Shown in pieces: positions 1,165-45,891 of a stretch of DNA of 55,493 bases (its first letter is position 1; every line of letters starts with the position of its first letter). The stretch lies in IMG/VR virus record IMGVR_UViG_2663763400_000006; one strand, given 5' to 3'. Made by a program: the position numbers and the translations under genes. The notes below the pieces were generated by a model. The model searched no databases, was not told the origin of the DNA, and was given only the letters and a program-made list of their open reading frames with translations. This stretch comes from a virus (Duplodnaviria; Heunggongvirae; Uroviricota; Caudoviricetes).

Positions 1165-1391
1165 TTTCTTTCCTCTGTTATGCCATCACCCGCGCTCACC
1201 TGGACAGTATGCAGCGGAGACTGAAGCGCCGCAATGCAGGCTTGCCGTGTTGTGAGGTAAGGAGATTTTGGCTTGGTTGGATCTTTACGTGTTGCCTGTA
1301 GGCGGCCTGTTCGTATCCAGTTGGTGGCGGTTGGTCTGGATATCTTAAGAAACTGACAGGCCTCATCGAGTGTGAGGCTGTATGATTCCAT
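1020..1391 (-). CDS. xis: Excisionase-like DNA-binding protein; 3' end overlaps int
   Basis: Probable start [31 protein letters not shown] inside the 1020..1421 ORF; HTH excisionase/AlpA-like pattern; position immediately upstream of int. Confidence 0.55.
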
Positions 1392-1641
1392 GGTTACCTC
1401 TGCTTTTTGAACGCATGTCACGTAACTTCTTAATGTGTTCTGCCGTTTCGATCTCTTCTGCTATCCGATCTGCATCAGCTTTATTCACAGGTTCAAAGTC
1501 ATGATTAAAGCGGAACATGCTGGCGATACATGTTCTGCCTTTTCGGATGTAGTGAACTTTGTTGTGGGTAGAACGCAGGATTTTGCAGGGAGTGCCGTGG
1601 TGGTCGACGTACCAGGTGTTAGGAAAAATGATTCTGAACAT
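1363..1641 (-). CDS. Hypothetical small early-left protein
   Basis: 92-aa ORF on the same strand as the early-left operon; no recognisable motif. Confidence 0.3.
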   Translation of the reverse strand: MFRIIFPNTWYVDHHGTPCKILRSTHNKVHYIRKGRTCIASMFRFNHDFEPVNKADADRIAEEIETAEHIKKLRDMRSKSRGNHGIIQPHTR

Positions 1642-5536: not shown

Positions 5537-6400
5537 TCATTTCGCATCTACAATAAATAACCTGTTTATCTGGCCTTTTTTAACAGTAGCCTTTGCGGTT
5601 ATAGTGAATACTGCAGATGGATCACCTTTGGTTGATATATATGCACTAAGAGCTCTAATATACGGGTTATTCTTCTTTCCTGCAGCTGGATCGCTAATTT
5701 CAGCAGTGATTCTCTTTTTTGAGTCATCACCATCTAAAATTATTTTAGCTGTCATATTTTGTGCATCAAATTCTGTAAGAAAAGCACGATACTCACGAAG
5801 ACCGAGAACTTCATCATCATCAAGCCTATCAATTTCAGCTTTATCTCTCTCATTAACTTTTAGAAGGCAGCCGTCAACATTTGTTGCAACACTTATCTGA
5901 TCGCAAGTATTACCAATAGGTGATACTGCCTGCCTTACAGAGGGGCGAAGCTCTACAGCCATTCGGTCAATCAAAGAGATCAACTTATCAATGGTTCCAG
6001 CATCCTTGTTTCCTAGTGCCTCTATGGCCTTTTCAAGTGACTGCTGCAAAGCTTTCATTTCATCTTTCTTGTTAGAATTTCTCGCAAAAATATATTGTAG
6101 TATTGCGCCAAGTATAGTTGCGGCGATCCCCGAGAACAACTGGTTCTGAGTGGCGAAGTTAAGAACTGCTTCAAGAGTAAAGCAGTTAGCTTTTGCTTCG
6201 CGTGCGTAAACCTTAACTTCCTGATAATTAATGTATTTACTATATTTTTGTGTAACAGAGAAAGAAGCTGCTGTTGAGAGAACTTTAGAAAAACCCTTTA
6301 GGGATTCTCCTAGGCAGTTCAAATCTATTTCATGATTTAAAGCATCTTTTCCGTCATACCTAAGAGAGATTTTTATATCCTGTAAAGCGTCACAATCCAT
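5537..6400 (-). CDS. Unknown 287-aa protein with one central hydrophobic segment, in the rexAB position
   Basis: ATG at 6400; AT-rich codon usage unlike flanking phage genes; hydrophobic segment [19 protein letters not shown]; co-directional with and 3' of cI, followed by a terminator. Confidence 0.6.
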
Positions 6401-9781: not shown

Positions 9782-10080
9782 CGGGCAAAGAGGCAATTAT
9801 TCATTACCTGGGGACGCATAAGAGCTTCTGTGCACAGGACGTTGCCGCGGTAACAGGCGCAACCGTAACCAGCATAAATCAGGCTGCGGCTAAAATGGCG
9901 CGGGCAGGAATCCTGGTCGTTGATGGTAAGGTCTGGCGAACGGTGTATTACCGGTTCGCTACCAGAGAAGAACGGGAAGGAAAGGTGAGCACGAATCTGA
10001 TTTTTAAGGAGTGTCGCCAGAGTGCCGCGATGAAACGCTTATTGAGGGTATATAAAAGAACATCAATGGGTACACAATGA
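9778..10080 (+). CDS. ren: Ren
   Basis: MTGKEAIIHYLGTHKSFCAQDVAAVTGATVTSINQAAAKMARAGILVVDGKVWRTVYYRFATREEREGK matches lambda Ren as recalled. Confidence 0.85.
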   Translation: MTGKEAIIHYLGTHKSFCAQDVAAVTGATVTSINQAAAKMARAGILVVDGKVWRTVYYRFATREEREGKVSTNLIFKECRQSAAMKRLLRVYKRTSMGTQ

Positions 10081-10147
10081 TGAAACAGGTGAGTTGATTT
10101 CAAACTGTAGTACAATTCTCTCCAGTTTGAACAGGAAAGAATATGCT

Positions 10148-10480
10148 ATGAACCCTTATATTTATCTTGGTGGTGCAATACTTGCAGAGGTCATTGGTAC
10201 AACCTTAATGAAGTTTTCAGAAGGTTTTACACGGTTATGGCCATCTGTTGGTACAATTATTTGTTATTGTGCATCATTCTGGTTATTAGCTCAGACGCTG
10301 GCTTATATTCCTACAGGGATTGCTTATGCTATCTGGTCAGGAGTCGGTATTGTCCTGATTAGCTTACTGTCATGGGGATTTTTCGGCCAACGGCTGGACC
10401 TGCCAGCCATTATAGGCATGATGTTGATTTGTGCCGGTGTGTTGGTTATTAATTTATTGTCACGAAGCACACCACATTAA
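10148..10480 (+). CDS. emrE: Small multidrug resistance efflux transporter EmrE
   Basis: 110 aa starting MNPYIYLGGAILAEVIGTTLMKFSEGF, four TM helices, matches E. coli EmrE of DLP12 as recalled. Confidence 0.9.
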   Translation: MNPYIYLGGAILAEVIGTTLMKFSEGFTRLWPSVGTIICYCASFWLLAQTLAYIPTGIAYAIWSGVGIVLISLLSWGFFGQRLDLPAIIGMMLICAGVLVINLLSRSTPH

Positions 10481-10736
10481 AAATAATTTGTTTCTAAACG
10501 ACTAAAATATGGAGGCTCTTATATTTATATGAGCCTCGTTTTATGCTTTTTGTTAATGTCTTTATTTTTTTATGTATTCTTTTGTGCTTTCAAGATTATG
10601 GCGTAAGAAAATTGCAATACGATTATTGTTGTATATTCAAGATAATGTGACCTTAATTGTCTTTTTAAATAAAAATTAAACAAAAATTATATCTCACCAC
10701 TAAGGTTTATAAAAGCATACGTTAGCAGGTGTCACC

Positions 10737-12263
10737 ATGAAAAAAGCCATAGCATATATGCGATTTTCATCACCAGGTCAGATGTCTGGCGACTCATTAA
10801 ACCGACAGAGAAGACTTATTGCTGAATGGTTAAAGGTAAATAGTGATTATTATCTTGATACCATAACATATGAAGATTTAGGATTAAGTGCATTCAAAGG
10901 AAAGCATGCACAATCAGGAGCTTTTTCGGAATTTTTAGATGCTATAGAGCATGGTTATATATTGCCAGGAACTACATTGTTAGTTGAAAGTCTGGACAGA
11001 CTTTCAAGAGAAAAAGTCGGTGAAGCGATTGAGCGTCTGAAATTGATTTTGAATCACGGTATTGATGTTATAACTCTTTGCGATAATACAGTCTATAATA
11101 TTGACTCTTTGAATGATCCATATTCATTAATAAAAGCCATACTTATAGCACAAAGGGCAAATGAAGAAAGCGAGATAAAGTCAAGTCGGGTTAAATTATC
11201 ATGGAAGAAAAAACGGCAGGATGCACTGGAGTCAGGCACGATTATGACGGCGTCTTGTCCGAGATGGCTCTCCTTAGATGACAAAAGAACGGCTTTTGTT
11301 CCAGACCCCGACAGGGTGAAAACTATTGAGCTAATTTTTAAACTCAGGATGGAAAGGCGCTCATTGAATGCAATAGCCAAGTATTTAAATGATCATGCTG
11401 TAAAGAATTTCTCAGGAAAAGAAAGTGCATGGGGACCTTCTGTAATTGAAAAATTATTAGCGAATAAAGCTCTGATAGGTATATGCGTACCTTCATATCG
11501 TGCAAGAGGTAAAGGAATAAGTGAAATCGCTGGCTATTATCCCAGAATCATATCAGATGATTTGTTTTACGCTGTGCAGGAAATTCGGTTGGCACCTTTT
11601 GGTATTAGCAATAGTAGCAAAAATCCTATGTTGATAAATCTACTTCGAACAGTTATGAAGTGCGAGGCTTGTGGTAATACCATGATTGTTCATGCGGTAT
11701 CTGGAAGTTTGCATGGCTATTATGTTTGTCCGATGAGAAGACTGCATCGATGTGACAGGCCATCAATAAAGAGAGATTTGGTTGATTATAATATCATTAA
11801 TGAGTTGCTTTTTAATTGTAGTAAAATCCAACCAGTTGAAAACAAGAAAGATGCTAATGAAACTTTAGAGTTGAAAATTATTGAGCTCCAGATGAAAATT
11901 AATAATTTAATTGCTGCATTATCTGTTGCGCCTGAAGTTACCGCTATAGCAGAAAAAATCAGAGTATTAGATAAGGAATTACGAAGGGCTTCTGTATCAT
12001 TAAAAACTTTGAAGAGTAAAGCGGTGAGCTCACTTGGTGATTTTCATGCTATTGACTTAACCAGTAAAAATGGGCGAGAGCTATGTCGTACACTTGCCTA
12101 TAAAACATTCGAAAAAATCATAATCAATACAGATAATAAAACCTGTGATATCTATTTTATGAATGGCATTGTTTTTAAACACTATCCTTTAATGAAAACA
12201 ATATCCGCCCAGCAGGCGATAAGTACTCTCAAATATATGGTTGATGGTGAGGTTTATTTTTGA
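10737..12263 (+). CDS. Large serine recombinase (DLP12 YbcK-like)
   Basis: 508 aa with N-terminal resolvase/invertase catalytic domain (AYMRFSSPGQ...SLNRQ) and a Cys-rich recombinase region (CEACGNTMIVH...YYVCPMRRLHRC); AT-rich. Confidence 0.85.
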   Translation: MKKAIAYMRFSSPGQMSGDSLNRQRRLIAEWLKVNSDYYLDTITYEDLGLSAFKGKHAQSGAFSEFLDAIEHGYILPGTTLLVESLDRLSREKVGEAIERLKLILNHGIDVITLCDNTVYNIDSLNDPYSLIKAILIAQRANEESEIKSSRVKLSWKKKRQDALESGTIMTASCPRWLSLDDKRTAFVPDPDRVKTIELIFKLRMERRSLNAIAKYLNDHAVKNFSGKESAWGPSVIEKLLANKALIGICVPSYRARGKGISEIAGYYPRIISDDLFYAVQEIRLAPFGISNSSKNPMLINLLRTVMKCEACGNTMIVHAVSGSLHGYYVCPMRRLHRCDRPSIKRDLVDYNIINELLFNCSKIQPVENKKDANETLELKIIELQMKINNLIAALSVAPEVTAIAEKIRVLDKELRRASVSLKTLKSKAVSSLGDFHAIDLTSKNGRELCRTLAYKTFEKIIINTDNKTCDIYFMNGIVFKHYPLMKTISAQQAISTLKYMVDGEVYF

Positions 12264-12374
12264 GTAATAATCACTTTTTCAACCGTGCTATAGTAAGAAA
12301 GTTAGGTAAGTACAATAAAATTATCTATCCTGAACGAAGCGTCCTGAGCTATGGTTTTACTATAGGGACTGCCA

Positions 12375-12692
12375 ATGGATGCTGGCGTTCTCGTTCTAGC
12401 AGTTCAACAATCCCCAATCACAAAACAATTCACTGATAACGAACTTTGCACACTCGCCTGGTTATGGCGAGCAGGGAATGTGATGTTAATTGCCTACCAG
12501 AACGTTACTCATCTTCTTCAGGATGCGGAGCATGGTGAAGCTGGTCACTTCACTTCCATCGAGCAAGAATATCCCCAGATACTCAACAGAGCGCGAGCAA
12601 TCCTCGTCCGAGAAACGGCACATGTAAAACTTCAGCCGTGGCAGGATGATAAGTGGAGTCGAGTATTGCCGTATTTGCGTCAAATCTGTTAG
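12375..12692 (+). CDS. Hypothetical protein
   Basis: 105-aa ORF with no recognisable motif; coding status uncertain. Confidence 0.25.
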   Translation: MDAGVLVLAVQQSPITKQFTDNELCTLAWLWRAGNVMLIAYQNVTHLLQDAEHGEAGHFTSIEQEYPQILNRARAILVRETAHVKLQPWQDDKWSRVLPYLRQIC

Positions 12693-12881
12693 GAGTATAG
12701 CCGCCAGCCATGAGTGTTGTATTAAAACAAGGATGTCTATATATGGGATAGCGAGAGTATGAATATCAGTTATTTTGAGAGTTAACTGATTGTGAAATTA
12801 GTTTTTTTCACAAACGAGTGGGGTTACTATGATGAGTGTTCTAATGCATAGGGAACACCTAATTTTTTCAATGAATTCAAA

Positions 12882-13826
12882 TTGATAGGATCAAAAATGG
12901 CACAACAGAGAACTACCTCCCTCAGATCCATACCTTTAGACTTAGATGTTAAGCAAGAGGCTGTCATTAACGGTATAGAAATGGGGGTACTCGATAACGG
13001 AATTCCGTACCTTACTCAGAATGGGTTGGCAAATGTTTGTGGTGTTCAGCGTTTGCGAATCAAGGAAATTACCGATGAGTGGGCTCAATCTGTTGAGAAC
13101 GGTATTTTCAAAAAAGGAAGAATGACTTTTATTGGTACATATCTTCTTAATGAAGGTTTTACAGATGAAAAACTTTATATACCAATAATTCGAAATGGTG
13201 TTGAGTACCATGCTTATCCAGATGTTGTATGCATGGCTATACTTGAATACTATGCCTTTGAAGCAAAACAAGCAGAAAGTGAGACTGCAATTAGATCTTA
13301 CAGAGAGCTTGCTAAAAAAGGCCTCAAGACATTTATATACGAGGCGCTAAAATATCAACCGGAGGACCCGTGGAGGCATTACCATGACAGAGTATCTTTA
13401 TTAAAAGATAAGGGAACCATACCTGATGGGTATTTCATTATATTTAATGAAATTGCAGGTATGATGGTAGATCTCATCAATGCTGGATTAGCGATTAATC
13501 AGCATACCGTACCTGATGGCAGTGTTGGTTCTTGCTGGGCGCGTCACTGGAAAGCAAAGGGGTTAGCAACAGAATTTGGAGAAAGAGTAGACTGTGAGCA
13601 TTATTACCCTGAAGATTTTCTTCAGGCAAGTTCCAATCCTCAGATCATTAATGCCTATCCTGATTCTGCATTGTCAGAGTTTCGTAGATGGTTTAAGCAT
13701 GAATATTTAACCACAAAGTTCCCACCGTATATTCTTAAAAAATCAAACGTGCTTCCTGGTGGTACAGAAGATGCTAATCGTCTGATAGAAGCTTTCAAAA
13801 AATCAGAGCTAGAAAATAAACCATAA
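12882..13826 (+). CDS. Hypothetical 314-aa protein (accessory gene in the nin region)
   Basis: Long AT-rich ORF with an upstream AT-rich leader; no domain I can assign with confidence. Confidence 0.5.
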   Translation: MIGSKMAQQRTTSLRSIPLDLDVKQEAVINGIEMGVLDNGIPYLTQNGLANVCGVQRLRIKEITDEWAQSVENGIFKKGRMTFIGTYLLNEGFTDEKLYIPIIRNGVEYHAYPDVVCMAILEYYAFEAKQAESETAIRSYRELAKKGLKTFIYEALKYQPEDPWRHYHDRVSLLKDKGTIPDGYFIIFNEIAGMMVDLINAGLAINQHTVPDGSVGSCWARHWKAKGLATEFGERVDCEHYYPEDFLQASSNPQIINAYPDSALSEFRRWFKHEYLTTKFPPYILKKSNVLPGGTEDANRLIEAFKKSELENKP

Positions 13827-14022
13827 TTGTTTTTTGGCTTTTGATTTTACATAATCATTTTGCCATAATCATGTCATCGGAGCCTGAACAACTCCGGTGA
13901 CTTCTGCGCTAAACGGGGACGTTTATGCGCACATACAATCCAAACTCTCTTCTCCCTTCACAGATGCAGAGATGCACCTGCGATTTTTTGCATCCAGCGT
14001 TTGACCTCTGCGGAGGTGAAGC

Positions 14023-14478
14023 GTGAATCTCCCACAAGATGGCATCAAATTACATCGCGGTAACTTCACCGCTATCGGTCGGCAGATCCAGCCTTATCTG
14101 GAGGAGGGCAAATGCTTTCGCATGGTGCTTAAACCGTGGCGTGAGAAACGCAGTCTTTCCCAGAATGCACTCAGCCACATGTGGTACAGCGAAATCAGTG
14201 AATACCTCATCAACAGGGGTAAAACGTTCGCCACTCCAGCTTGGGTAAAAGATGCTCTCAAACACACATATCTCGGTTATGAAACCAAAGACCTGGTTGA
14301 TGTCGTAACCGGTGATATCACCACTATCCAGTCGTTACGCCATACCTCCGATCTTGATACCGGAGAGATGTATGTCTTCCTGTGTAAGGTTGAAGCCTGG
14401 GCGGTGAATATTGGCTGCCACCTGACTATTCCGCAGAGCTGCGAGTTCCAGCTGCTCCGTGACAAGCAGGAGGCGTAA
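14023..14478 (+). CDS. ybcN: YbcN/NinB-like protein
   Basis: 151 aa (GTG start with GGAGG Shine-Dalgarno); matches DLP12 YbcN as recalled and occupies the NinB position. Confidence 0.6.
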
Positions 14479-14648
14479 TGGCTACACCGCTTATTCGTGT
14501 CATGAACGGACACATCTACAGAGTATCAAATCGTCGTAAGCGTAAGCCTGAGCCGAAGCCATCCGAAATACCAACACTGCTCGGATATACCGCTAGCCTG
14601 GTTGATAAAAAATGGTTGCGACTGGCAGCAAGGAGGAATCATGGCTGA
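14478..14648 (+). CDS. ninE: NinE
   Basis: 56-aa [35 protein letters not shown]... read from the sequence (too short for the ORF track); start overlaps the ybcN stop. Confidence 0.55.
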   Translation: MATPLIRVMNGHIYRVSNRRKRKPEPKPSEIPTLLGYTASLVDKKWLRLAARRNHG

Positions 14649-14931
14649 TTTGAGAAAAGCAGCGCGTGGTCGGGAATGCCAGGTAAGAATCCCTGGCGTA
14701 TGTAATGGCAATTCTGAAACGTCTGTACTGGCACATATCCGGCTGGCTGGATTGTGCGGTACCGGTATCAAACCGCCAGACCTGATTGCCACCATTGCAT
14801 GTTCTGCCTGCCACGACGAAATCGACCGCCGCACACATTTTGTCGATGCTGCATATGCAAAAGAATGCGCGCTGGAAGGTATGGCGAGAACACAGGTTAT
14901 CTGGCTGAAAGAGGGGGTTATTAAGGCGTGA
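14641..14931 (+). CDS. ybcO: YbcO-like protein (DUF1364, putative nuclease)
   Basis: Cys-rich protein ([11 protein letters not shown]...CSACHDEID); ATG at 14641 overlapping ninE. Confidence 0.55.
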
Positions 14932-15290
14932 ATACCTACAGTATCACATTACCCTGGCCGCCGAGCAATAATCGCTATTACCGCCATAATCGCGGGCGCA
15001 CGCACGTCAGCGCAGAGGGGCAGGCATACCGCGATAACGTCGCCCGAATCATTAAAAACGCAATGCTGGATATCGGCCTAGCTATGCCTGTGAAAATCCG
15101 CATTGAGTGCCACATGCCGGATCGCCGTCGCCGTGACCTGGATAATCTGCAAAAAGCCGCTTTTGACGCACTCACTAAAGCAGGTTTCTGGCTGGATGAT
15201 GCTCAGGTCGTTGATTACCGCGTTGTGAAGATGCCTGTTACCAAAGGTGGGAGGCTGGAACTGACCATCACCGAAATGGGGAATGAATGA
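14928..15290 (+). CDS. rusA: Holliday junction resolvase RusA
   Basis: 120 aa, [42 protein letters not shown]... matches E. coli RusA as recalled. Confidence 0.9.
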
Positions 15291-15427
15291 TGTTTGAGTT
15301 TAATATGGCAGAATTTCTTCGCCACCGCTGGGGGCGTCTGCGCTTATATCGTTTCCCCGGTTCTGTTTTGACCGATTACCGAATACTGAAGAATTACGCC
15401 AAAACCCTGACAGGAGCAGGAGTATGA
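15287..15427 (+). CDS. ylcG: YlcG-like small protein
   Basis: 46-aa [26 protein letters not shown]... read from the sequence, overlapping the rusA stop. Confidence 0.4.
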
Positions 15428-15511
15428 AGTCAGAGATAACAATCAACTAATACTGTTTTGTTGATTTTTGCTTGTAATTGGCGTTCTGGCCTGATTTTGT
15501 GGAGAAAGTTG

Positions 15512-15868
15512 ATGCGTGATATGTATGAAGTAATGGATCGTTGGGGAGCTTGGGCTGCTTCAGACAATAGCGGAGTGGACTGGCAGCCGATAGCGGCTGG
15601 TTTCAAGGGACTTTTACCTCATGGCAAAAAGTCACGGATTCAGTGTGATGATGACGAAGGCATCATGATAGACAGTTGTGTGGCTCGGTTGAGAAGGTAT
15701 AAACCAGAGGAATATGAGCTCATCATCGCCCACTTTGTTATCGGTATCTCATTACGCACTATTGCGAAGAAGAGAAAATGCTCTGATGGCACAATTAGGA
15801 AGGAACTGCAAACTGCAATGGGGTTTGTTGACGGCTGTTTAGCAATGTTAGCTTATAGTATGGCATAA
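15512..15868 (+). CDS. Q: Late-gene antiterminator Q (phage 82/21-type)
   Basis: MRDMYEVMDRWGAWAASDNSGVDWQPIAAGFKGLLP... with Cys/His-rich core; position after rusA. Confidence 0.7.
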   Translation: MRDMYEVMDRWGAWAASDNSGVDWQPIAAGFKGLLPHGKKSRIQCDDDEGIMIDSCVARLRRYKPEEYELIIAHFVIGISLRTIAKKRKCSDGTIRKELQTAMGFVDGCLAMLAYSMA

Positions 15869-17062
15869 AAAATAAAATAGATTTACTGCCGATTTTTCAA
15901 AAAAGACTGGGAACTGTTTATATCCAACGTAAATAAGGCCTCCATAAAACATGGCTGATGCGAGATATTTAACAGTTCTCATCCTTTTTTTAGCTTTATC
16001 AATCAAACCTGTAATGCTACTCTTAATACTATCTGCATTATCTTTGATTTCTTTATTTTCTTCAAACTTTAAATACTTATCGAAAGCGGACTCCACTCGA
16101 GAACGTAAGTTGTCGAATGTTTCATTGAATATCTCAATAGAAATGTAATTGACTTTTTTTATCATCCAAAGTCCTGCGATAATCAATATTGCTTCGGTTG
16201 TTTCATTAGCCTTCACTAAGCCACCAGCTGCTATTAATGCACCGGGAATAGTCAATGCTTTTGTCTGATTAGATGATATGAATTCGTTAATTTTACTCGT
16301 GAACTCAAGATTTTTCTCATCGAGTTCGTTAAGAATTTTATTTACAGAAAACCTCTTTGTGTAAATCTCATATAGTTCATCATATTTTTTCCTGACGAGT
16401 TCAGTAGAGTTAAGCAAGTCAAAGAAATTGAACGTACCATTTGCTTTAAATACTTCGTTTATGGCTGAGCGTATAACGAGCTTGCGCTCGCTTTTGTGTA
16501 AATCATTGATTTTTATTGTGTCGAGAAGCTCCTTTATAATTTCATATTTAAGAGACGAGTTCGATAAGCGATTAATCTCGCTATATTGTAAAAAATGCGT
16601 GAGTTCGACTGTATAACTTTTGTCTTCATTGGTGAAAAATAAGACAGAGCAGTCACTGTTATGATGATCAGCAATTAATGAAAGGATATCTTTCCACATA
16701 AAGAAAATATGGATTTTTTCGATGCTTTCATTCTTAGAAGTAGGGAGTATTAACGGCGTTCCGATGATATAATTTTTCGGAAGAGCGTTTTGGGTGTTTA
16801 CTCTAGACCAAAAAGACTCAACATTCTCATAAATTATAGCATCATCCCAAGATGAAGCTTGGCGATCTAGCCAAATTTCATTATTTTCGATGCAGGTTGT
16901 TGCCTTTTTATAACCTATAGATTGTAACAGTCTAATTATTTCAGAACTATTTACAATAACAATGCTTTCTTCAAGACTTATGACAGTGTAGTAGCCCTCA
17001 ACTCTGCTTGAGGCTCCGTTAATAATCTGCGCTAATCTTGATAAGTCATCAGCAATTGTCAT
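15848..17062 (-). CDS. Unknown 404-aa protein with C-terminal transmembrane helices (cassette gene 2)
   Basis: ATG at 17062, 2 bp after the upstream gene stop; strongly AT-rich; hydrophobic helices near the C-terminus (LTIPGALIAAGGLV, AILIIAGLWMI, YLASAMFYGGLIYVGY). Confidence 0.6.
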   Translation of the reverse strand: MTIADDLSRLAQIINGASSRVEGYYTVISLEESIVIVNSSEIIRLLQSIGYKKATTCIENNEIWLDRQASSWDDAIIYENVESFWSRVNTQNALPKNYIIGTPLILPTSKNESIEKIHIFFMWKDILSLIADHHNSDCSVLFFTNEDKSYTVELTHFLQYSEINRLSNSSLKYEIIKELLDTIKINDLHKSERKLVIRSAINEVFKANGTFNFFDLLNSTELVRKKYDELYEIYTKRFSVNKILNELDEKNLEFTSKINEFISSNQTKALTIPGALIAAGGLVKANETTEAILIIAGLWMIKKVNYISIEIFNETFDNLRSRVESAFDKYLKFEENKEIKDNADSIKSSITGLIDKAKKRMRTVKYLASAMFYGGLIYVGYKQFPVFFEKSAVNLFYFLCHTIS

Positions 17063-17064
17063 TA

Positions 17065-18240
17065 TTAGCTGTCTCTATATCTTTTGAGTTCATCATAATT
17101 TGCCTGACTCAATTTTATCACAATTTCGCATTTGTTGTCAGTGAGAATTACAGGCTTATTTGACTTTTCGTCTCCAATAGCTCCACGCATTATTTTCAAC
17201 TTAAAATTATTGTCGTTATCTGCCACTTCAATTGTAAGCGCGCTTTCAGCTGCTTTAGGAGTTGGTTCAAATTGAGGGTCAATCTGGAAACCATTAAGAT
17301 TAACAAAATCGACAAACGTTCCCTTACATTTGTGTGAATCAGTCAGGCATGAGTCAATTATTTTTGAAATATCCTCTATCTTAACGGACTTATTTCCGTG
17401 TTTATCTTTTGATTTTTTTTCCAGTAAGGATTTAACTTCATTGTCAATAGTATCACGCAGTACACGACCGAGTGAGTTTTTACTAGCAAAAATATCTATA
17501 GCACTGAATAATTGCTGAATGCTTCTTTTATTGTCCGAATCATGTCGGCAACCTAATGAGTCTTTGAAAAAATCGCTTTTAGATTTACCTTGCAAGAAAT
17601 GTACATATGAGTCACCCTTGTTTTCTGGATAACTGGCTTCGAATAAAGTTAAATCGAACATCGCAGCCTGCCGTAAGGCATCGGTATTAATTGGATTTAA
17701 TCTTGTTGGGGTCAACTTATCCGAATCAAAGTCATAGGCGCTTTGTTTATCAACCATTACGATTAGAAGTTTCCCCAAATCCTCTGGTTCGGTAGACTTA
17801 TAGTGGATGAAAACAACGCTCCCCCCCTGAAGTTGGGCAACTCTCGATTCGTTATTAGCATTATGTTTAAGCTTCTCTATTATAGCTCTAGATAAATCAA
17901 TGAATTCATTATTCTTATTAATGTATTTTTTTAGGATCGTAGGAATGGATGAAGGGTTGTGATCTGAGTCTAGGAAGTTATGAAATTTGTTTTTTCGGCT
18001 AAATTTTTTCTCAATTCTGGTTATGAATTCAGATGTGACTTCATTTTTTAGATCCCAAACTTCACCTAATCGATAATCAAATGCTCTTGAATCATTTTTT
18101 TCAAGATTTGCTGTTACAGCACCAATAGGAAAGTACGATTGTTTGCCCAGCACTACAACATGAGGCGTGGCACCGCATTTATCGCAAGCTACAGTTGGGT
18201 CGTCAAGAACATTGCCACATTCTAAACAAGTTATATCCAT
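17065..18240 (-). CDS. Zn-ribbon plus YejK/NdpA-like (NA37 nucleoid-associated family) protein (cassette gene 1)
   Basis: N-terminal CLECG...CDKCG zinc ribbon; motifs GGSVVFIHYK and YVHFLQGKSKSDFFKDSLG resemble YejK ([32 protein letters not shown]) as recalled; AT-rich. Confidence 0.55.
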   Translation of the reverse strand: MDITCLECGNVLDDPTVACDKCGATPHVVVLGKQSYFPIGAVTANLEKNDSRAFDYRLGEVWDLKNEVTSEFITRIEKKFSRKNKFHNFLDSDHNPSSIPTILKKYINKNNEFIDLSRAIIEKLKHNANNESRVAQLQGGSVVFIHYKSTEPEDLGKLLIVMVDKQSAYDFDSDKLTPTRLNPINTDALRQAAMFDLTLFEASYPENKGDSYVHFLQGKSKSDFFKDSLGCRHDSDNKRSIQQLFSAIDIFASKNSLGRVLRDTIDNEVKSLLEKKSKDKHGNKSVKIEDISKIIDSCLTDSHKCKGTFVDFVNLNGFQIDPQFEPTPKAAESALTIEVADNDNNFKLKIMRGAIGDEKSNKPVILTDNKCEIVIKLSQANYDELKRYRDS

Positions 18241-19827: not shown

Positions 19828-20121
19828 TTATTGTGAGCAATACACACGCGCTTCCAGCGGAGTATAAATGCCTAAAGTAATAAAACCGAGCAATCCATTT
19901 ACGAATGTTTGCTGGGTTTCTGTTTTAACAACATTTTCTGCGCCGCCACAAATTTTTGCTGCATCGACAGTTTTCTTCTGTCCAATTCCCGAAACGAAGA
20001 AGTGATGGGTGATGGTTTCCTTTGGTGTTACTGCTGTAGGTTTGTTTCCAACAGTAAACGTCTGTTGAGCACATCCTGTAATAAGCATTGCCAGAGCGGC
20101 AGAAAACAACATTTTTTTCAT
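19828..20121 (-). CDS. bor: Bor lipoprotein (serum-resistance factor)
   Basis: Start MKKMLFSAALAMLITGCAQQTFTV... matches lambda Bor as recalled; lipobox ITGC. Confidence 0.9.
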   Translation of the reverse strand: MKKMLFSAALAMLITGCAQQTFTVGNKPTAVTPKETITHHFFVSGIGQKKTVDAAKICGGAENVVKTETQQTFVNGLLGFITLGIYTPLEARVYCSQ

Positions 20122-39740: not shown

Positions 39741-40319
39741 ATGGCCATAAAAGGTCTTGAGCAGGCCGTTGAAAACCTCAGCCGTATCAGCAGAACGGCG
39801 GTGCCCGGTGCCGCCGCAATGGCCATTAACCGCGTTGCTTCATCCGCGATATCGCAGTCGGCGTCACAGGTTGCCCGTGAGACAAAGGTACGCCGGAAAC
39901 TGGTAAAGGAAAGGGCCAGGCTGAAAAGGGCCACGGTCAAAAATCCGCAGGCCAGAATCAAGGTTAACCGGGGGGATTTGCCCGTAATCAGGCTGGGTAA
40001 CGCGCGGGTTGTCCTGTCCCGACGCAGGCGTCGTAAAAAGGGGCAGCGTTCATCCCTGAAAGGTGGCGGCAGCGTGCTTGTGGTGGGAAACCGTCGTATT
40101 CCCGGCGCGTTTATTCAGCAACTGAAAAATGGCCGGTGGCATGTCATGCAGCGTGTGGCCGGGAAAAACCGTTACCCCATTGATGTGGTGAAAATCCCGA
40201 TGGCGGTGCCGCTGACCACGGCGTTTAAACAGAATATTGAGCGGATACGGCGTGAGCGTCTTCCGAAAGAGCTGGGCTATGCGCTGCAGCATCAACTGAG
40301 AATGGTAATAAAGCGATGA
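39741..40319 (+). CDS. Z: Tail completion protein Z
   Basis: 192 aa, matches lambda Z as recalled. Confidence 0.9.
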   Translation: MAIKGLEQAVENLSRISRTAVPGAAAMAINRVASSAISQSASQVARETKVRRKLVKERARLKRATVKNPQARIKVNRGDLPVIRLGNARVVLSRRRRRKKGQRSSLKGGGSVLVVGNRRIPGAFIQQLKNGRWHVMQRVAGKNRYPIDVVKIPMAVPLTTAFKQNIERIRRERLPKELGYALQHQLRMVIKR

Positions 40320-40711
40320 AACATACTGAACTCCGTGCAGCCGTACTGGATGCACTGGAGAAGCATGACACCGGGGCGACGCTTTTTGATGGTCGCCCTG
40401 CTGTTTTTGATGAGGAAGATTTTCCGGCAATTGCCGTTTATCTCACCGGCGCTGAATACACGGGCGAAGAGCTGGACAGCGATACCTGGCAGGCGGAGCT
40501 GCATATTGAAGTTTTCCTGCCTGCTCAGGTGCCGGATTCAGAGCTGGATTCGTGGATGGAGTCCCGGATTTATCCGGTGATGAGCGATATCCCGGCACTG
40601 TCAGATTTGATCACCAGTATGGTGGCCAGTGGCTATGACTACCGGCGCGACGATGATGCGGGCCTGTGGAGTTCAGCCGATCTGACTTATGTCATTACCT
40701 ATGAAATGTGA
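40316..40711 (+). CDS. U: Tail terminator U
   Basis: 131 aa, matches lambda U as recalled. Confidence 0.9.
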
Positions 40712-40718
40712 GGACGAT

Positions 40719-41459
40719 ATGCCAACACCAAATCCTCTGGCACCGGTGAAAGGGGCCGGGACCACACTGTGGGTTTATAACGGGAGCGGCGACCCTTATG
40801 CAAACCCGCTTTCAGACAATGACTGGTCGCGTCTGGCAAAGGTTAAAGACCTGACGCCCGGCGAACTGACCGCTGAGTCCTATGACGACAGTTATCTCGA
40901 TGATGAAGATGCGGACTGGACCGCGACCGGGCAGGGGCAGAAATCCGCCGGAGATACCAGCTTCACGCTGGCGTGGATGCCCGGAGAGCAGGGGCAGCAG
41001 GCGCTGCTGGCGTGGTTTAATGAAGGTGATACCCGTGCCTATAAAATCCGCTTCCCGAACGGCACGGTCGATGTGTTCCGTGGCTGGGTCAGCAGTATCG
41101 GTAAGGCGGTGACGGCGAAGGAAGTGATCACCCGTACGGTGAAGGTCACCAATGTGGGCCGTCCGTCAATGGCAGAAGATCGCAGTACGGTGACGGCGGC
41201 AACCGGTATGACCGTGACGCCTGCCAGCTCCTCGGTGGTGAAAGGGCAGAGCACCACGCTGACCGTGGCCTTCCAGCCGGAGGGCGCAACTGACAAGAGC
41301 TTCCGTGCGGTGTCAGCGGATAAAACAAAAGCCACCGTGTCGGTCAGTGGTATGACCATCACCGTGAACGGCGTTGCTGCAGGCAAGGTCAACATTCCGG
41401 TTGTATCCGGTAATGGTGAACTTGCTGCGGTTGCAGAAATCACTGTCACCGACAGTTAA
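40719..41459 (+). CDS. V: Major tail tube protein V
   Basis: [45 protein letters not shown]... matches lambda V as recalled. Confidence 0.9.
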
Positions 41460-41474
41460 TCCGGAGAGTCAGCG

Positions 41475-41897
41475 ATGTTCCTGAAAACCGAATCATTTGA
41501 ACATAACGGCGTGACCGTCACGCTTTCTGAACTGTCAGCCCTGCAGCGTATTGAGCATCTCGCCCTGATGAAACAGCAGGCAGAACAGGCGGAGTCAGAC
41601 AGCAACCGGCAGGTTACTGTGGAAGACGCCATCAGAACCGGTGCTTTTGTGGTGGCGATGTCCCTGTGGCATAACCATCCGCAGAAGACAAAGCAGCCTT
41701 CCATGAATGAAGCCGTTAAACAGATTGAGCAGGAAGTGCTTACCACCTGGCCCGCGGAGGCAATTTCTCATGCTGAAAACGTGGTGTACCGGCTGTCCGG
41801 TATGTATGGGTTTGTGGTGAATGATGCCCCTGACCAGGCAGAGGACTCCGGGCCTGCAGAGCCTGTTTCTGCGGGAAAGCGTTCGACGGTGAGCTGA
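41475..41897 (+). CDS. G: Tail assembly chaperone G
   Basis: 140 aa, matches lambda G as recalled. Confidence 0.9.
   Translation: MFLKTESFEHNGVTVTLSELSALQRIEHLALMKQQAEQAESDSNRQVTVEDAIRTGAFVVAMSLWHNHPQKTKQPSMNEAVKQIEQEVLTTWPAEAISHAENVVYRLSGMYGFVVNDAPDQAEDSGPAEPVSAGKRSTVS
41883..41889 (+). promoter_or_regulatory. Programmed -1 frameshift slippery site for G-T
   Basis: GGGAAAG heptamer near the 3' end of G, followed by the -1 frame T ORF. Confidence 0.7.
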
Positions 41898-41923
41898 GTT
41901 TTGCCCTGAAACTGGCGCGTGAG

Positions 41924-42313
41924 ATGGGGCGACCCGACTGGCGTGCCATGCTTGCCGGGATGTCATCCACGGAGTATGCCGACTGGCACCGCTTTTACAG
42001 TACCCATTATTTTCATGATGTTCTGCTGGATATGCACTTTTCCGGGCTGACGTACACCGTGCTCAGCCTGTTTTTCAGCGATCCGGATATGCATCCGCTG
42101 GATTTCAGTCTGCTGAACCGGCGCGAGGCTGACGAAGAGCCTGAAGATGATGTGCTGATGCAGAAAGCGGCAGGGCTTGCCGGAGGTGTCCGCTTTGGCC
42201 CGGACGGGAATGAAGTTATCCCTACTTCCCCGGATGTGGCGGACATGACGGAGGATGACGTAATGCTGATGACAGTATCAGAAGGGATCGCAGGAGGAGT
42301 CCGGTATGGCTGA
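41924..42313 (+). CDS. T: Tail assembly protein T (made as G-T fusion by -1 frameshift)
   Basis: ORF in the -1 frame relative to G, ending just inside H; lambda gpGT architecture. Confidence 0.8.
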   Translation: MGRPDWRAMLAGMSSTEYADWHRFYSTHYFHDVLLDMHFSGLTYTVLSLFFSDPDMHPLDFSLLNRREADEEPEDDVLMQKAAGLAGGVRFGPDGNEVIPTSPDVADMTEDDVMLMTVSEGIAGGVRYG

Positions 42314-44867: not shown

Positions 44868-45193
44868 AGACCTTCCGCTGGAAAGTGAAACCCGGTATGG
44901 ATGTGACATCGGCTCCTTCCGTCAGGGAGGTGCGCTTTGGTGATGGCTATTCCCAGCGTGCGCCTGCCGGGCTGAACGCTGACCTGAAAACGTACAGCGT
45001 GACGCTGTCTGTCTCCCGTGAGGAGGCCACGGCGCTGGAGTCGTTTCTGGCTGAGCACGGGGGCTGGAAGGCCTTTCTGTGGACGCCGCCTTATGGTTAC
45101 AGGCAGATAAAGGTGACCTGCGCAAAATGGTCGTCGCAGGTCAGTATGTTGCGTGTTGAGTTCAGCGCAGAGTTTAAACAGGTGGTGAACTGA
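44864..45193 (+). CDS. M: Minor tail protein M
   Basis: 109 aa, matches lambda M as recalled. Confidence 0.9.
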   Translation: MKTFRWKVKPGMDVTSAPSVREVRFGDGYSQRAPAGLNADLKTYSVTLSVSREEATALESFLAEHGGWKAFLWTPPYGYRQIKVTCAKWSSQVSMLRVEFSAEFKQVVN

Positions 45194-45891
45194 TGCAGGA
45201 TATCCGGCAGGAAACACTGAATGAATGCACCCGTGCGGAGCAGTCGGCCAGCGTGGTGCTCTGGGAAATCGATCTGACAGAGGTTGGTGGAGAACGTTAT
45301 TTTTTCTGTAATGAGCAGAACGAAAAAGGTGAGCCGGTCACCTGGCAGGGGCGGCAGTATCAGGCGTATCCCATTCAGGGGAGTGGTTTTGAACTGAATG
45401 GCAAAGGCACCAGTACGCGCCCCACGCTGACGGTTTCTAACCTGTACGGCATGGTCACCGGGATGGCGGAAGATCTGCAGAGTCTGGTCGGCGGAACGGT
45501 GGTCAGGCGTAAGGTTTACGCCCGTTTTCTGGATGCGGTGAACTTCGTCAACGGAAACAGAGACGCCGATCCGGAGCAGGAGGTGATCAGCCGCTGGCGC
45601 ATTGAGCAGTGCAGCGAACTGAGCGCGGTCAGTGCCTCCTTTGTACTGTCCACGCCGACGGAAACGGACGGCGCTGTTTTTCCGGGACGTATCATGCTGG
45701 CCAACACCTGCACCTGGACCTATCGCGGCGATGAGTGCGGTTATCACGGTCCGGCGGTCGCGGATGAATATGACCAGCCAACGTCCGATATCACGAAGGA
45801 TAAATGCAGCAAATGCCTGAGCGGTTGTAAGTTCCGCAATAACGTCGGCAACTTTGGCGGCTTCCTTTCCATTAACAAACTTTCGCAGTAA
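45193..45891 (+). CDS. L: Minor tail protein L
   Basis: 232 aa, matches lambda L as recalled. Confidence 0.9.
   Translation: MQDIRQETLNECTRAEQSASVVLWEIDLTEVGGERYFFCNEQNEKGEPVTWQGRQYQAYPIQGSGFELNGKGTSTRPTLTVSNLYGMVTGMAEDLQSLVGGTVVRRKVYARFLDAVNFVNGNRDADPEQEVISRWRIEQCSELSAVSASFVLSTPTETDGAVFPGRIMLANTCTWTYRGDECGYHGPAVADEYDQPTSDITKDKCSKCLSGCKFRNNVGNFGGFLSINKLSQ

What the first reader, a model, noticed from the sequence alone, without database searches (positions are those of the whole stretch)
12375..13826. Unknown accessory genes in the ren-nin region
Between the serine recombinase and ybcN, where DLP12 carries other genes, this prophage has a 105-aa ORF and a 314-aa ORF. The larger is AT-rich and preceded by an AT-rich leader. 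It is another variable slot, and the 314-aa protein is a candidate accessory or defence factor.
Basis: inference. Interest (0 to 1): 0.45.

Follow-up and report, generated by a model that had tools for sequence, protein, structure and literature searches.

The report
BstA phage-defence gene in prophage
The larger "unknown" gene is a full-length member of the known BstA family of prophage abortive-infection defence proteins, sitting as a self-contained cassette in a variable slot of a lambda-like prophage, and the smaller ORF is the leftover C-terminal half of a Rha-type antirepressor gene.

Summary
Both ORFs are real and lie where stated. The 314-aa ORF most likely starts at ATG 12897 (309 aa). 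It is a full-length BstA homologue (PHROG 6287 E=1.9e-136; PADLOC BstA E=3.8e-121; 40% identical to the tested BstA of Salmonella phage BTP1). RefSeq already names it, and a published E. coli survey reports BstA-carrying lambda-like prophages at tRNA-Arg, where this prophage sits. The 105-aa ORF is the C-terminal (P22AR_C) half of a 202-aa Rha protein.

A 1.6-kb cassette (12273-13863) replaces ybcL-ybcM of K-12 DLP12. Other lambdoid phages carry other cargo there, so the slot is variable. The bstA unit looks like a classic moron: promoter-like site, gene, hairpin over the stop codon.

Extra result: in 85 non-redundant bstA loci, the best direct repeat around the gene start is spaced 57 nt in 30 loci and 56 nt in 7. 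No other spacing from 20 to 100 exceeds 4 loci. The repeat sequence is clade-specific and the two copies change together. This matches the terminal repeats of the mapped anti-BstA (aba) element of BTP1. The window's copies (12850-12861, 12907-12919) are a degenerate candidate aba.

Verdict: known system, untested allele, low to moderate interest.

The parts
12273..13863 (.). Cassette that replaces ybcL-ybcM of K-12 DLP12, between the ybcK stop and the ylcH/ybcN backbone
   Evidence: blastn of window against K-12: homology 9867-12272 (97.4%) and 13864-15559 (97.0%), nothing in between.
12375..12692 (+). 105-aa ORF: P22AR C-terminal domain only, the 3' remnant of a rha-type antirepressor gene
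   Evidence: Pfam PF10548 E=7.7e-14 (52 bits, cut-off 22.4). phrog_7640 E=1.7e-69 over its full length. 82% identical to residues 100-198 of the 202-aa Rha protein of phage PhiR26_1. DNA homology covers only window 12388-12690, matching the last 304 nt of that rha gene. Phage Turner has the ORF without bstA.
12693..12896 (+). AT-rich leader of bstA (GC 0.338). It holds two perfect 8-bp inverted repeats (12765-12772/12783-12790 and 12790-12797/12806-12813).
   Evidence: The left edge of the bstA-specific cassette relative to phage Turner is about 12681.
12805..12833 (+). Promoter-like site TTTTCA-17-TATGAT, a candidate bstA promoter for expression in the lysogen
   Evidence: Consensus scan; the number of such sites in the region is not above chance. 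The -10-like box aligns with a conserved TATCAT(A) in the ~90%-identical relatives, about 20 nt upstream of repeat copy 1. Inferred, not shown.
12850..12861 (+). Candidate aba repeat copy 1 (AGGGAACACCTA), non-coding, 47 nt upstream of the start codon
   Evidence: The invariant columns of non-coding DNA upstream of the start codon across the clade fall in this motif. It lies at -131 from the MGVL anchor, as in relatives. Sequence read.
12907..12919 (+). Candidate aba repeat copy 2 (AGAGAACTACCTC), in codons 4-8, 57 nt downstream of copy 1
   Evidence: Relatives have AGAGA(A/T)CACCCT in both copies. The Arg codon at this position is AGA in 20 of the 21 loci that have Arg there, against 25% AGA among the other Arg codons of the clade's bstA genes.
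12897..13826 (+). bstA: 309-aa BstA-family abortive-infection protein (stop codon included; the longest ORF starts at TTG 12882)
   Evidence: PHROG 6287 E=1.9e-136, residues 10-313 of the 314-aa form on profile positions 2-303 of 304. PADLOC BstA E=3.8e-121. 40% identity, E=5e-77, to BTP1 BstA. PF26567 BstA_C precomputed for the identical protein. PGAP name. AlphaFold model pLDDT 87.4.
13799..13848 (+). A/U-rich 21-bp hairpin with the stop codon in its loop and U runs after it: terminator-like end of the cassette
   Evidence: RNA fold of 13790-13910: -33.4 kcal/mol, z=-4.64, 0 of 200 shuffles as good. Backbone homology with Turner and PhiR26_1 resumes at 13840. Owen et al. state that native bstA genes carry Rho-independent terminators.

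Best explanation
The 12897-13826 gene encodes a BstA-family abortive-infection protein carried as a self-contained moron in the ren-nin region of a lambdoid prophage integrated at tRNA-Arg (argU).

Proposed mechanism, by homology with the three tested BstA proteins: the lysogen expresses BstA from a promoter in the AT-rich leader. When an unrelated phage infects, BstA goes to the replicating phage DNA and blocks its replication. The infected cell is lost but the population is protected.

[quoted passage not shown] Here that would be the pair of 12-13-nt direct repeats 57 nt apart (12850-12861 and 12907-12919), probably bound by BstA's N-terminal DNA-binding domain.

The upstream 105-aa ORF is the remnant C-terminal half of a Rha-type antirepressor and is not part of the system.

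Shown here: family membership, cassette boundaries, and the family-wide repeat architecture. Inferred: expression in the lysogen, the defence phenotype, aba function of the repeats, and who binds them.
For: Family membership:
- Full-length profile matches: PHROG 6287 'BstA abortive infection system, replication inhibitor' E=1.9e-136 and PADLOC BstA E=3.8e-121.
- 40% identity over 99% of its length to BTP1 BstA; 39% to the BstA-Ec type; 61% to the NCTC9022 homologue listed by Owen et al..
- The tested BstA-Kp and BstA-Ec are only 48.4% and 41.7% identical to BstA-BTP1, yet all three confer defence (PMC8585504).
- The residues invariant across 60 homologues are present here.

Prophage context:
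- intD next to tRNA-Arg, with recombination, immunity, replication, Q, lysis, head and tail genes.
- Hochhauser 2023 found E. coli bstA only in lambda-like prophages at tRNA-Arg.

Module structure:
- Promoter-like site and a hairpin over the stop codon.
- Sharp recombination boundaries against Turner and PhiR26_1.

Candidate aba:
- BTP1 aba is 63 bp, from -29 to +34, bounded by CCCGCC repeats. A single change in either copy kills it.
- In 85 non-redundant bstA loci the best repeat spacing is 57 nt in 30 and 56 nt in 7, against 0-4 for every other spacing from 20 to 100.
- At the fixed position, 46 of 85 loci show at least 9 of 12 identical bases, against 0-2 of 85 at eight control spacings.
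- The copies evolve together: 8.28/14 identity within a locus against 4.40/14 between loci, reached by 0 of 5000 permutations.
- The signal survives clustering of the proteins at 80% identity: 23 of 48 clusters.
- The BstA-Ec-type locus and a Klebsiella phage show repeats at spacing 57 with different sequences.
Against: - Nothing was tested experimentally for this allele, and it is only about 40% identical to the characterised proteins.
- It is not in the position the original paper called strikingly conserved (downstream of cI). It lies in the pR operon, co-oriented with it, so expression in the lysogen depends on an unproven promoter. The promoter scan found no more sites than chance (5 found, 4.9 expected).
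- The window's own repeats are degenerate: 7 of 12 without a gap, 11 of 12 with a 1-nt gap. Copy 1 lacks one C relative to its relatives. Alone they are not significant (the best repeat in the window had P=0.97). Since one substitution inactivates the BTP1 aba, this one could be dead.
- The xis pseudogene and fragmented tail-fibre genes raise doubt that the prophage still replicates lytically.
Confidence: 0.8

Rival explanations
1. The gene is a BstA homologue, but the 56/57-nt repeats are only BstA's own operator (transcriptional autoregulation at the 5' UTR and start codon). They are not a self-immunity element, or they do both jobs.
For: The repeats lie just downstream of the promoter-like site and bracket the ribosome-binding site and start codon, which is a typical place for an autoregulatory operator. 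BstA has a putative DNA-binding N-terminal domain.
Against: In BTP1 the segment bounded by the repeats is necessary and sufficient for immunity in trans from a promoterless high-copy plasmid, and it acts on BstA expressed from PtetA. Titration or inactivation of the protein, not control of its synthesis, therefore explains the phenotype there. The two roles do not exclude each other.
Confidence: 0.3
2. The gene is an inert or decaying passenger in a partly degraded prophage. It is either not expressed, or active with a broken aba so that it merely locks the prophage in (a 'grounded' prophage).
For: xis pseudogene and fragmentary side-tail-fibre genes. Copy 1 of the repeat has a 1-nt deletion relative to all relatives. 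There is no statistically supported promoter.
Against: The ORF is intact with every family-invariant residue. The cassette is at least 99.7% identical in about 110 of 5426 complete E. coli genomes from varied hosts. It is kept in prophages that differ in repressor, Q, lysis and terminase genes, which argues for retention rather than decay.
Confidence: 0.15
3. The protein is an antirepressor or KilA/Bro-type regulator of the prophage's own or other prophages' lysogeny (a KilA-N-like N-terminal domain next to an antirepressor remnant), not a defence protein.
Against: The match to BstA is full-length and includes the BstA-specific C-terminal domain. There is no hit to Ant, Bro or KilA-N profiles. 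The P22AR_C ORF occurs without bstA in phage Turner, and bstA occurs without it in relatives, so the two are not a unit.
Confidence: 0.05

Closest known systems
BstA-BTP1 (STMMW_03531, st313-td) of Salmonella prophage BTP1, with its 63-bp aba element (Owen et al. 2021, PMC8585504)
   Same: - Same family over the full length: 40% identity, E=5e-77.
- Similar size: 309 against 307 aa.
- Carried by a lambdoid/P22-like prophage.
- Direct repeats bracket the start codon at nearly the same spacing (57 against 56 nt).
- A hairpin lies at the gene end.
   Different: - It lies in the ren-nin region, co-oriented with the pR operon, not downstream of cI.
- The repeat sequence is AG(G/A)GAAC..ACCT rather than CCCGCC, and its core sits about 12 nt nearer the start codon.
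- The repeats are imperfect here.
- No experimental data exist for this allele.
BstA-Ec (E4V89_RS07420, E. coli NCTC10963) and the identical-type copies in CP024289 and phage CL707
   Same: - E. coli lambdoid prophage BstA, shown to defend when expressed in Salmonella.
- Its locus also has a 57-nt-spaced repeat, ATCCCT(A/G)CA.
   Different: - A different allele: 39% identity.
- Its gene is 897 nt in Owen's table (298 aa), against 309 aa here.
- It sits between cI and N.
~90%-identical BstA genes of enterobacterial lambdoid prophages in IMG/VR (L039-L055)
   Same: - Same subclade.
- Same nin-region placement between O/P/ren and ylcH/ybcN/ninE.
- Same repeat type, AGAGAACACCCT / AGAGAACGACCT, at spacing 57, and a conserved -10-like box.
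   Different: - Their repeats are better matched: 9-11 points in the repeat scan, against 5 for this pair in the window.
- Their flanking genes differ, and they lack ybcK and the P22AR_C ORF.
Other cargo in the same slot of lambdoid phages: ybcL-ybcM (DLP12), PD-lambda-1 plus Rha (PhiR26_1), alpha/beta hydrolase (Lambda_4C10), small ORFs (Turner)
   Same: Same insertion slot between ren/emrE-ybcK and ylcH-ybcN, with sharp homology boundaries.
   Different: The genes are unrelated. Only PD-lambda-1 is annotated as a defence system.

Membership tests
BstA abortive-infection family | Full-length sequence similarity to BstA profiles and to experimentally tested BstA proteins | tested here: met
   PHROG 6287 E=1.9e-136, covering profile positions 2-303 of 304. 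PADLOC PDLC02356 E=3.8e-121, covering 5-291 of 292. BLASTP against BTP1 BstA: 40% identity, E=5e-77.
BstA abortive-infection family | BstA C-terminal domain (Pfam PF26567) | tested here: met
   PF26567 is precomputed for the identical protein P0001 and for all full-length homologues, and is labelled BstA_C. PGAP names it 'BstA C-terminal domain-containing protein'. The local Pfam copy returned no such hit, apparently because it lacks this model.
BstA abortive-infection family | N-terminal KilA-N(-like) DNA-binding domain (residues 32-147 of BstA-BTP1) | tested here: inconclusive
BstA abortive-infection family | Encoded on a prophage | tested here: met
   Lambdoid prophage from intD beside tRNA-Arg through to the tail genes.
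BstA abortive-infection family | Located immediately downstream of the prophage repressor gene (frequent, not obligatory, in Owen et al.) | tested here: not met
   The gene lies about 5.7 kb from the S24 repressor, in the ren-nin region on the pR strand. Relatives at 59-69% identity do sit downstream of an S24 repressor. Relatives at ~90% identity share the nin position.
BstA abortive-infection family | Cognate aba DNA element overlapping the start codon, bounded by direct repeats | tested here: inconclusive
   Repeats at the family-typical position and 57-nt spacing are present (12850-12861 and 12907-12919) but imperfect. The family-wide signal is very strong. Function cannot be tested in silico.
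BstA abortive-infection family | Abortive-infection phenotype and inhibition of phage DNA replication | not testable with these tools
   Needs plaque, survival and Southern or qPCR assays.
P22AR C-terminal domain / Rha-Ant antirepressors (the 105-aa ORF) | P22AR_C domain (PF10548) above the gathering score | tested here: met
   52.0 bits against a cut-off of 22.4, E=7.7e-14, residues 15-85.
P22AR C-terminal domain / Rha-Ant antirepressors (the 105-aa ORF) | N-terminal Rha/AntA/KilA-N-type DNA-binding domain of a complete antirepressor | tested here: not met
   The ORF aligns only with residues 100-198 of the 202-aa Rha protein. DNA homology begins at 12388. No N-terminal domain was hit.

The most novel reading that the evidence does not exclude
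The anti-BstA self-immunity element has a general, previously unstated architecture across the BstA family. It consists of two copies of a 9-14-nt site held 57 nt apart (56 in some clades), at a fixed distance upstream of the conserved MGVL motif and usually bracketing the start codon. The site sequence differs between clades and the two copies co-evolve. The repeats would then be the specificity determinants that make aba 'cognate', and aba elements, and hence cross-immunity groups among BstA prophages, could be predicted from sequence. In this window the element is a degenerate version, with a 1-nt deletion in copy 1, which might mean a weakened or lost self-immunity.
Probability: 0.6. Interest if true: 0.55.

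Novelty: already known. Interest (0 to 1): 0.3.

Why it matters
For this window the result is mainly a clean annotation. The "unknown accessory genes" are a BstA abortive-infection defence gene plus an antirepressor remnant. A second defence system (DS-1) lies 2 kb downstream, so this argU prophage is a multi-defence carrier found in about 2% of complete E. coli genomes.

Two points go a little beyond the literature I could search.

1. One BstA subclade lives in the nin region, inside the pR operon, rather than behind cI. BstA would then also be transcribed with the early lytic genes on induction, which makes self-immunity more critical.

2. The 56/57-nt-spaced, clade-specific, co-evolving direct repeats give a sequence rule for locating aba elements. 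So far aba has been mapped only in BTP1. The rule makes directly testable what determines cognate BstA-aba specificity.

Tried and rejected
Searches with no useful result:
- Pfam and NCBIfam gave no significant hit for the larger protein. The best Pfam hit was crAss_CARG1 at E=0.16, which I treat as noise.
- The PDB sequence search, with the single protein and with the 60-sequence profile, found nothing meaningful. The ADP-ribose pyrophosphatase hit at E=0.02 covers 38 residues and I rejected it as chance.
- Foldseek against PDB had no match at E<=0.001.
- Rfam found nothing credible in 12200-14100, and ARAGORN found no tRNA in the window.

Tests that were weak or needed redoing:
- The promoter scan was not above chance.
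- The TGTGA...TCACA palindrome in the leader has a 12-nt spacer, not the 6 nt of a CRP site (my own reading), so I rejected it.
- The direct-repeat test on single loci with free spacing was not significant for the window (P=0.97) or for most loci. Only pooling across loci, with spacing controls, gave significance.
- My first AGA-codon test was circular because loci were chosen by the motif. I redid it choosing loci by the amino acid at the fixed position.
- The GTDB scan with the single protein gave only two close relatives. IMG/VR was needed.

Ideas rejected:
- That this protein is the tested BstA-Ec: the length differs and identity is 39%.
- That the 105-aa ORF and bstA form an operon or system: each occurs without the other.

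Full report
**Observation**

The six-frame ORF list shows the two ORFs exactly as reported: 12375-12692 (+, 105 aa) and 12882-13826 (+, 314 aa from TTG).

The real start of the larger gene is almost certainly ATG 12897 (309 aa), for three reasons:
- AGGA lies six bases upstream of it.
- PGAP uses this start.
- The identical 309-aa protein heads a cluster of 289 member sequences.

The gene has GC 0.389 and its 204-bp leader 0.338. The window as a whole has 0.493 and the neighbouring nin genes about 0.51.

**Setting**

At the finding the window is 100% identical to E. coli 2016C-3878. In that genome the stretch from 966574 onwards carries features at the same coordinates as the window's ORFs, although the two sequences are not identical over the first 49.9 kb.

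It is a lambdoid prophage. intD lies next to tRNA-Arg. The gene order after that is:
- exo/bet/gam
- an S24 repressor, cro and YdaT
- O, P and ren
- emrE, ylcJ and ybcK
- the two ORFs
- ylcH, ybcN, ninE, ybcO, rusA, ylcG and Q
- lysis, terminase, head and tail genes

A xis-like gene and the side tail fibre genes are fragmentary.

**The slot**

Against K-12 DLP12, homology ends at 12272 and resumes at 13864. A 1591-bp cassette therefore replaces ybcL-ybcM.

Against the free-living lambdoid phage Turner, homology continues through the 105-aa ORF to 12680 and resumes at 13840. The bstA-specific insert is therefore about 12681-13839.

Other phages hold other cargo in the same place:
- PhiR26_1 has PD-lambda-1, a full rha gene and a 169-aa ORF.
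- Lambda_4C10 has an alpha/beta hydrolase.

**The 105-aa ORF**

It hits Pfam P22AR_C above the gathering score (E=7.7e-14) and phrog_7640 over its full length. It is 82% identical to residues 100-198 of the 202-aa Rha protein of PhiR26_1. DNA homology starts only at 12388.

It is therefore the 3' half of a rha-type antirepressor gene that has kept an open frame. It occurs without bstA in Turner, and bstA occurs without it elsewhere. I do not count it as part of the system.

**The larger gene is bstA**

- PHROG 6287 ("BstA abortive infection system, replication inhibitor") matches at E=1.9e-136 over the whole profile.
- The PADLOC BstA model matches at E=3.8e-121.
- tblastn and BLASTP give 40% identity over 99% of the length to BstA of Salmonella phage BTP1.
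- It is 39% identical to the BstA-Ec type and 61% to the NCTC9022 homologue in Owen's table.
- It is not BstA-Ec itself. Owen's table gives that gene as 897 nt, or 298 aa.
- Homologues number 1250 at E<=1e-5, and the full-length ones listed carry PF26567, BstA_C.
- RefSeq already uses the name "BstA C-terminal domain-containing protein" in some genomes.
- Hochhauser et al. 2023 report that, among the E. coli hotspots they mapped, bstA occurs only in lambda-like prophages integrated in tRNA-Arg. That is this integration site.

The identification is solid, and the thing is already catalogued.

**What BstA does (from the literature)**

Owen et al. 2021 (PMC8585504) showed the following:
[quoted passage not shown] BstA-Kp and BstA-Ec are only 48.4% and 41.7% identical to BstA-BTP1.
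- BstA co-localises with phage DNA and prevents its replication.
- The carrying prophage escapes through aba, a DNA element in the bstA locus.
- In BTP1, aba is 63 bp, from -29 to +34 around the start codon, and ends in direct CCCGCC repeats. A single base change in either repeat destroys it.
- aba is specific to its own BstA.
- It was mapped to 63 bp only for BTP1. For BstA-Ec and BstA-Kp, only the whole locus with its upstream sequence was transferred.

I found no later mechanistic paper in the searchable library.

**Structure**

An AlphaFold model from a 60-sequence alignment is confident (pLDDT 87.4). It shows an N-terminal beta3/alpha3/beta2/alpha domain followed by a helical C-terminal part.

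- Foldseek against the PDB found nothing.

This is compatible with the published "KilA-N-like" call, but it is weak evidence.

**Module anatomy**

- A promoter-like TTTTCA-17-TATGAT lies at 12805-12833. The region's count of such sites is not above chance.
- Its -10 aligns with a conserved TATCAT(A) in the ~90%-identical relatives, about 20 nt before the first repeat.
- A 21-bp A/U-rich hairpin encloses the stop codon in its loop and is followed by U runs (13799-13848). The fold has z=-4.64, and none of 200 shuffles folds as well.

A promoter, a gene and a terminator bounded by recombination breakpoints make the classic moron layout. Expression in the lysogen is inferred, not shown.

**Candidate aba**

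I aligned the start regions of close relatives at 69-86% protein identity. The invariant columns of non-coding DNA upstream of the start codon fall in one motif, TAGGGAACACC(C)TA, about 47 nt upstream. A similar sequence recurs in codons 4-8.

In the window the two copies are 57 nt apart:
- AGGGAACACCTA at 12850-12861
- AGAGAACTACCTC at 12907-12919

I then collected bstA loci and anchored each on the conserved MGVL codons. The loci were:
- 80 from IMG/VR
- 20 from GTDB genomes
- BTP1, a BstA-Ec-type copy, the NCTC9022 homologue and several metagenomic contigs

Results for the 85 loci that differ by more than 3%:
- The best direct repeat in the 195 nt upstream has spacing 57 in 30 loci and 56 in 7. 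Every other spacing from 20 to 100 has 0-4 loci.
- At the fixed position, 46 of 85 loci have at least 9 of 12 identical bases at spacing 56 or 57. Eight control spacing pairs give 0-2 of 85.
- The repeat sequence is clade-specific:
  - AGAGA(A/T)CACCCT
  - CAGCAGGCCGCC
  - ACCGGCCACCC
  - CCCGCACCCC
  - TTGGTCATCACC
  - TTTAGTCCC
  - ATCCCT(A/G)CA in the BstA-Ec type
  - TGGTCA(T/C)CA in a Klebsiella phage
  - CCCGCCA in BTP1
- The two copies change together. Within-locus identity is 8.28/14 against 4.40/14 between loci, and 0 of 5000 permutations reach this.
- After clustering the proteins at 80% identity, 23 of 48 clusters still peak at 56 or 57. About one cluster is expected by chance.
- One clade, the NCTC9022 type, shows little of it.
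- The Arg codon inside copy 2 is AGA in 20 of the 21 loci that have Arg there. AGA makes up 25% of the other Arg codons in the clade's bstA genes. This points to a DNA-level constraint.
- Owen's primer for the bstA-Ec constructs starts at -86, so those constructs include both copies.

I read this as the general architecture of aba: two copies of a clade-specific site at a fixed spacing. The paper's text does not state this. That BstA itself binds the sites is my inference.

**Caveats for this window**

- The pair is degenerate: 7 of 12 without a gap, or 11 of 12 with a 1-nt gap.
- Copy 1 lacks a C that all relatives have.
- On its own the pair is not significant.
- Whether self-immunity still works here is open.

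**Position**

The original paper stressed the position downstream of cI. This copy does not follow that, and neither do its ~90%-identical relatives. They lie between O/P/ren and ylcH/ybcN/ninE, co-oriented with the early right operon. Relatives at 59-69% identity do sit behind an S24 repressor. The nin position is therefore a subclade trait.

**Distribution**

The bstA cassette is at least 99.7% identical in about 110 of 5426 complete E. coli genomes, always chromosomal. The one other carrier I inspected, strain 50EVA, has the same emrE-ybcK-P22AR_C-bstA-ybcN block at tRNA-Arg. Its repressor, Q, lysis and terminase genes differ.

**Verdict**

The object is a known system (BstA) in an allele that has not been tested experimentally. 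Interest in the finding itself is low to moderate. The aba repeat rule is the part worth following up.

Noticed in passing
window 15848-18240 (- strand): A two-gene 'DS-1' anti-phage system sits in the Q-to-lysis slot, where DLP12 has nmpC. The 404-aa protein matches NCBIfam NF053869 DS1_2_antiphage (E=2.8e-112, above cut-off). The 391-aa neighbour matches NF053868 DS1_1 'nucleoid-associated anti-phage protein' (E=2.1e-135). PADLOC 2023 has no model for it. This prophage therefore carries at least two defence cargoes.
   Followed up: partly
related loci L002-L004, L009-L113, L117, L118 (region -140 to -55 from the MGVL codons of bstA): A family-wide pair of direct repeats spaced 57 nt (56 in some clades). 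The sequence is clade-specific and the two copies co-evolve. It matches the ends of the mapped BTP1 aba element, and I did not find it stated in the original paper's text.
   Followed up: yes
L011, L012, L014 (long-N-terminus BstA forms, about 342 aa): In forms with a long predicted N-terminus, both repeat copies fall inside the ORF as extended upstream. In L011 they read QAASIK... and QTAPQK... Either the annotated starts are too far upstream, or the DNA repeat is also a peptide repeat there.
   Followed up: no
window 12765-12813: Two adjacent perfect 8-bp inverted repeats lie in the bstA leader: ATCAGTTA-N10-TAACTGAT and TTGTGAAA-N8-TTTCACAA. The second overlaps the -35 of the promoter-like site. 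It has a 12-nt spacer between TGTGA and TCACA, so it is not a CRP site. Function unknown.
   Followed up: partly
window 10094-12263: emrE-ylcJ-ybcK is an AT-rich block (ybcK GC 0.36; emrE through bstA 0.37) shared at 94-97% identity with DLP12 and phage Turner. The free-living lambdoid phage Lambda_4C10 carries the same three genes. It is therefore mobile phage cargo, not a K-12 peculiarity. ybcK is a large serine recombinase (Resolvase, Recombinase and Zn-ribbon domains).
   Followed up: partly
L007 (phage PhiR26_1) 690-2192, - strand: The same ren-to-ybcN slot in this phage carries the defence gene annotated PD-lambda-1, followed by a full-length rha gene. This supports the slot as a defence or moron hotspot.
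   Followed up: no
window 1340-1405 and 40562-45449 (coordinates as annotated in CP029747): A truncated xis-like HTH gene and several fragmentary side-tail-fibre and tail-fibre-assembly genes suggest the prophage is partly degraded. This bears on whether self-immunity (aba) is still under selection. The window is not identical to CP029747 everywhere: the ORF annotated at 5623-6063 (-) contains stop codons in the window.
   Followed up: no
window 13873-13901: A GC-richer hairpin (GUCAUCGGAGCC...CUCCGGUGAC) lies just inside the conserved backbone upstream of ylcH/ybcN. The surrounding backbone sequence is shared with DLP12, Turner and PhiR26_1. It is possibly a nin-region terminator.
   Followed up: no
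window 19828-20121 (-) and 39898-40497 (+): The prophage also carries iss (a bor-like serum-survival lipoprotein) and an Ail/Lom-family outer membrane protein. These are typical lambdoid virulence-associated morons.
   Followed up: no
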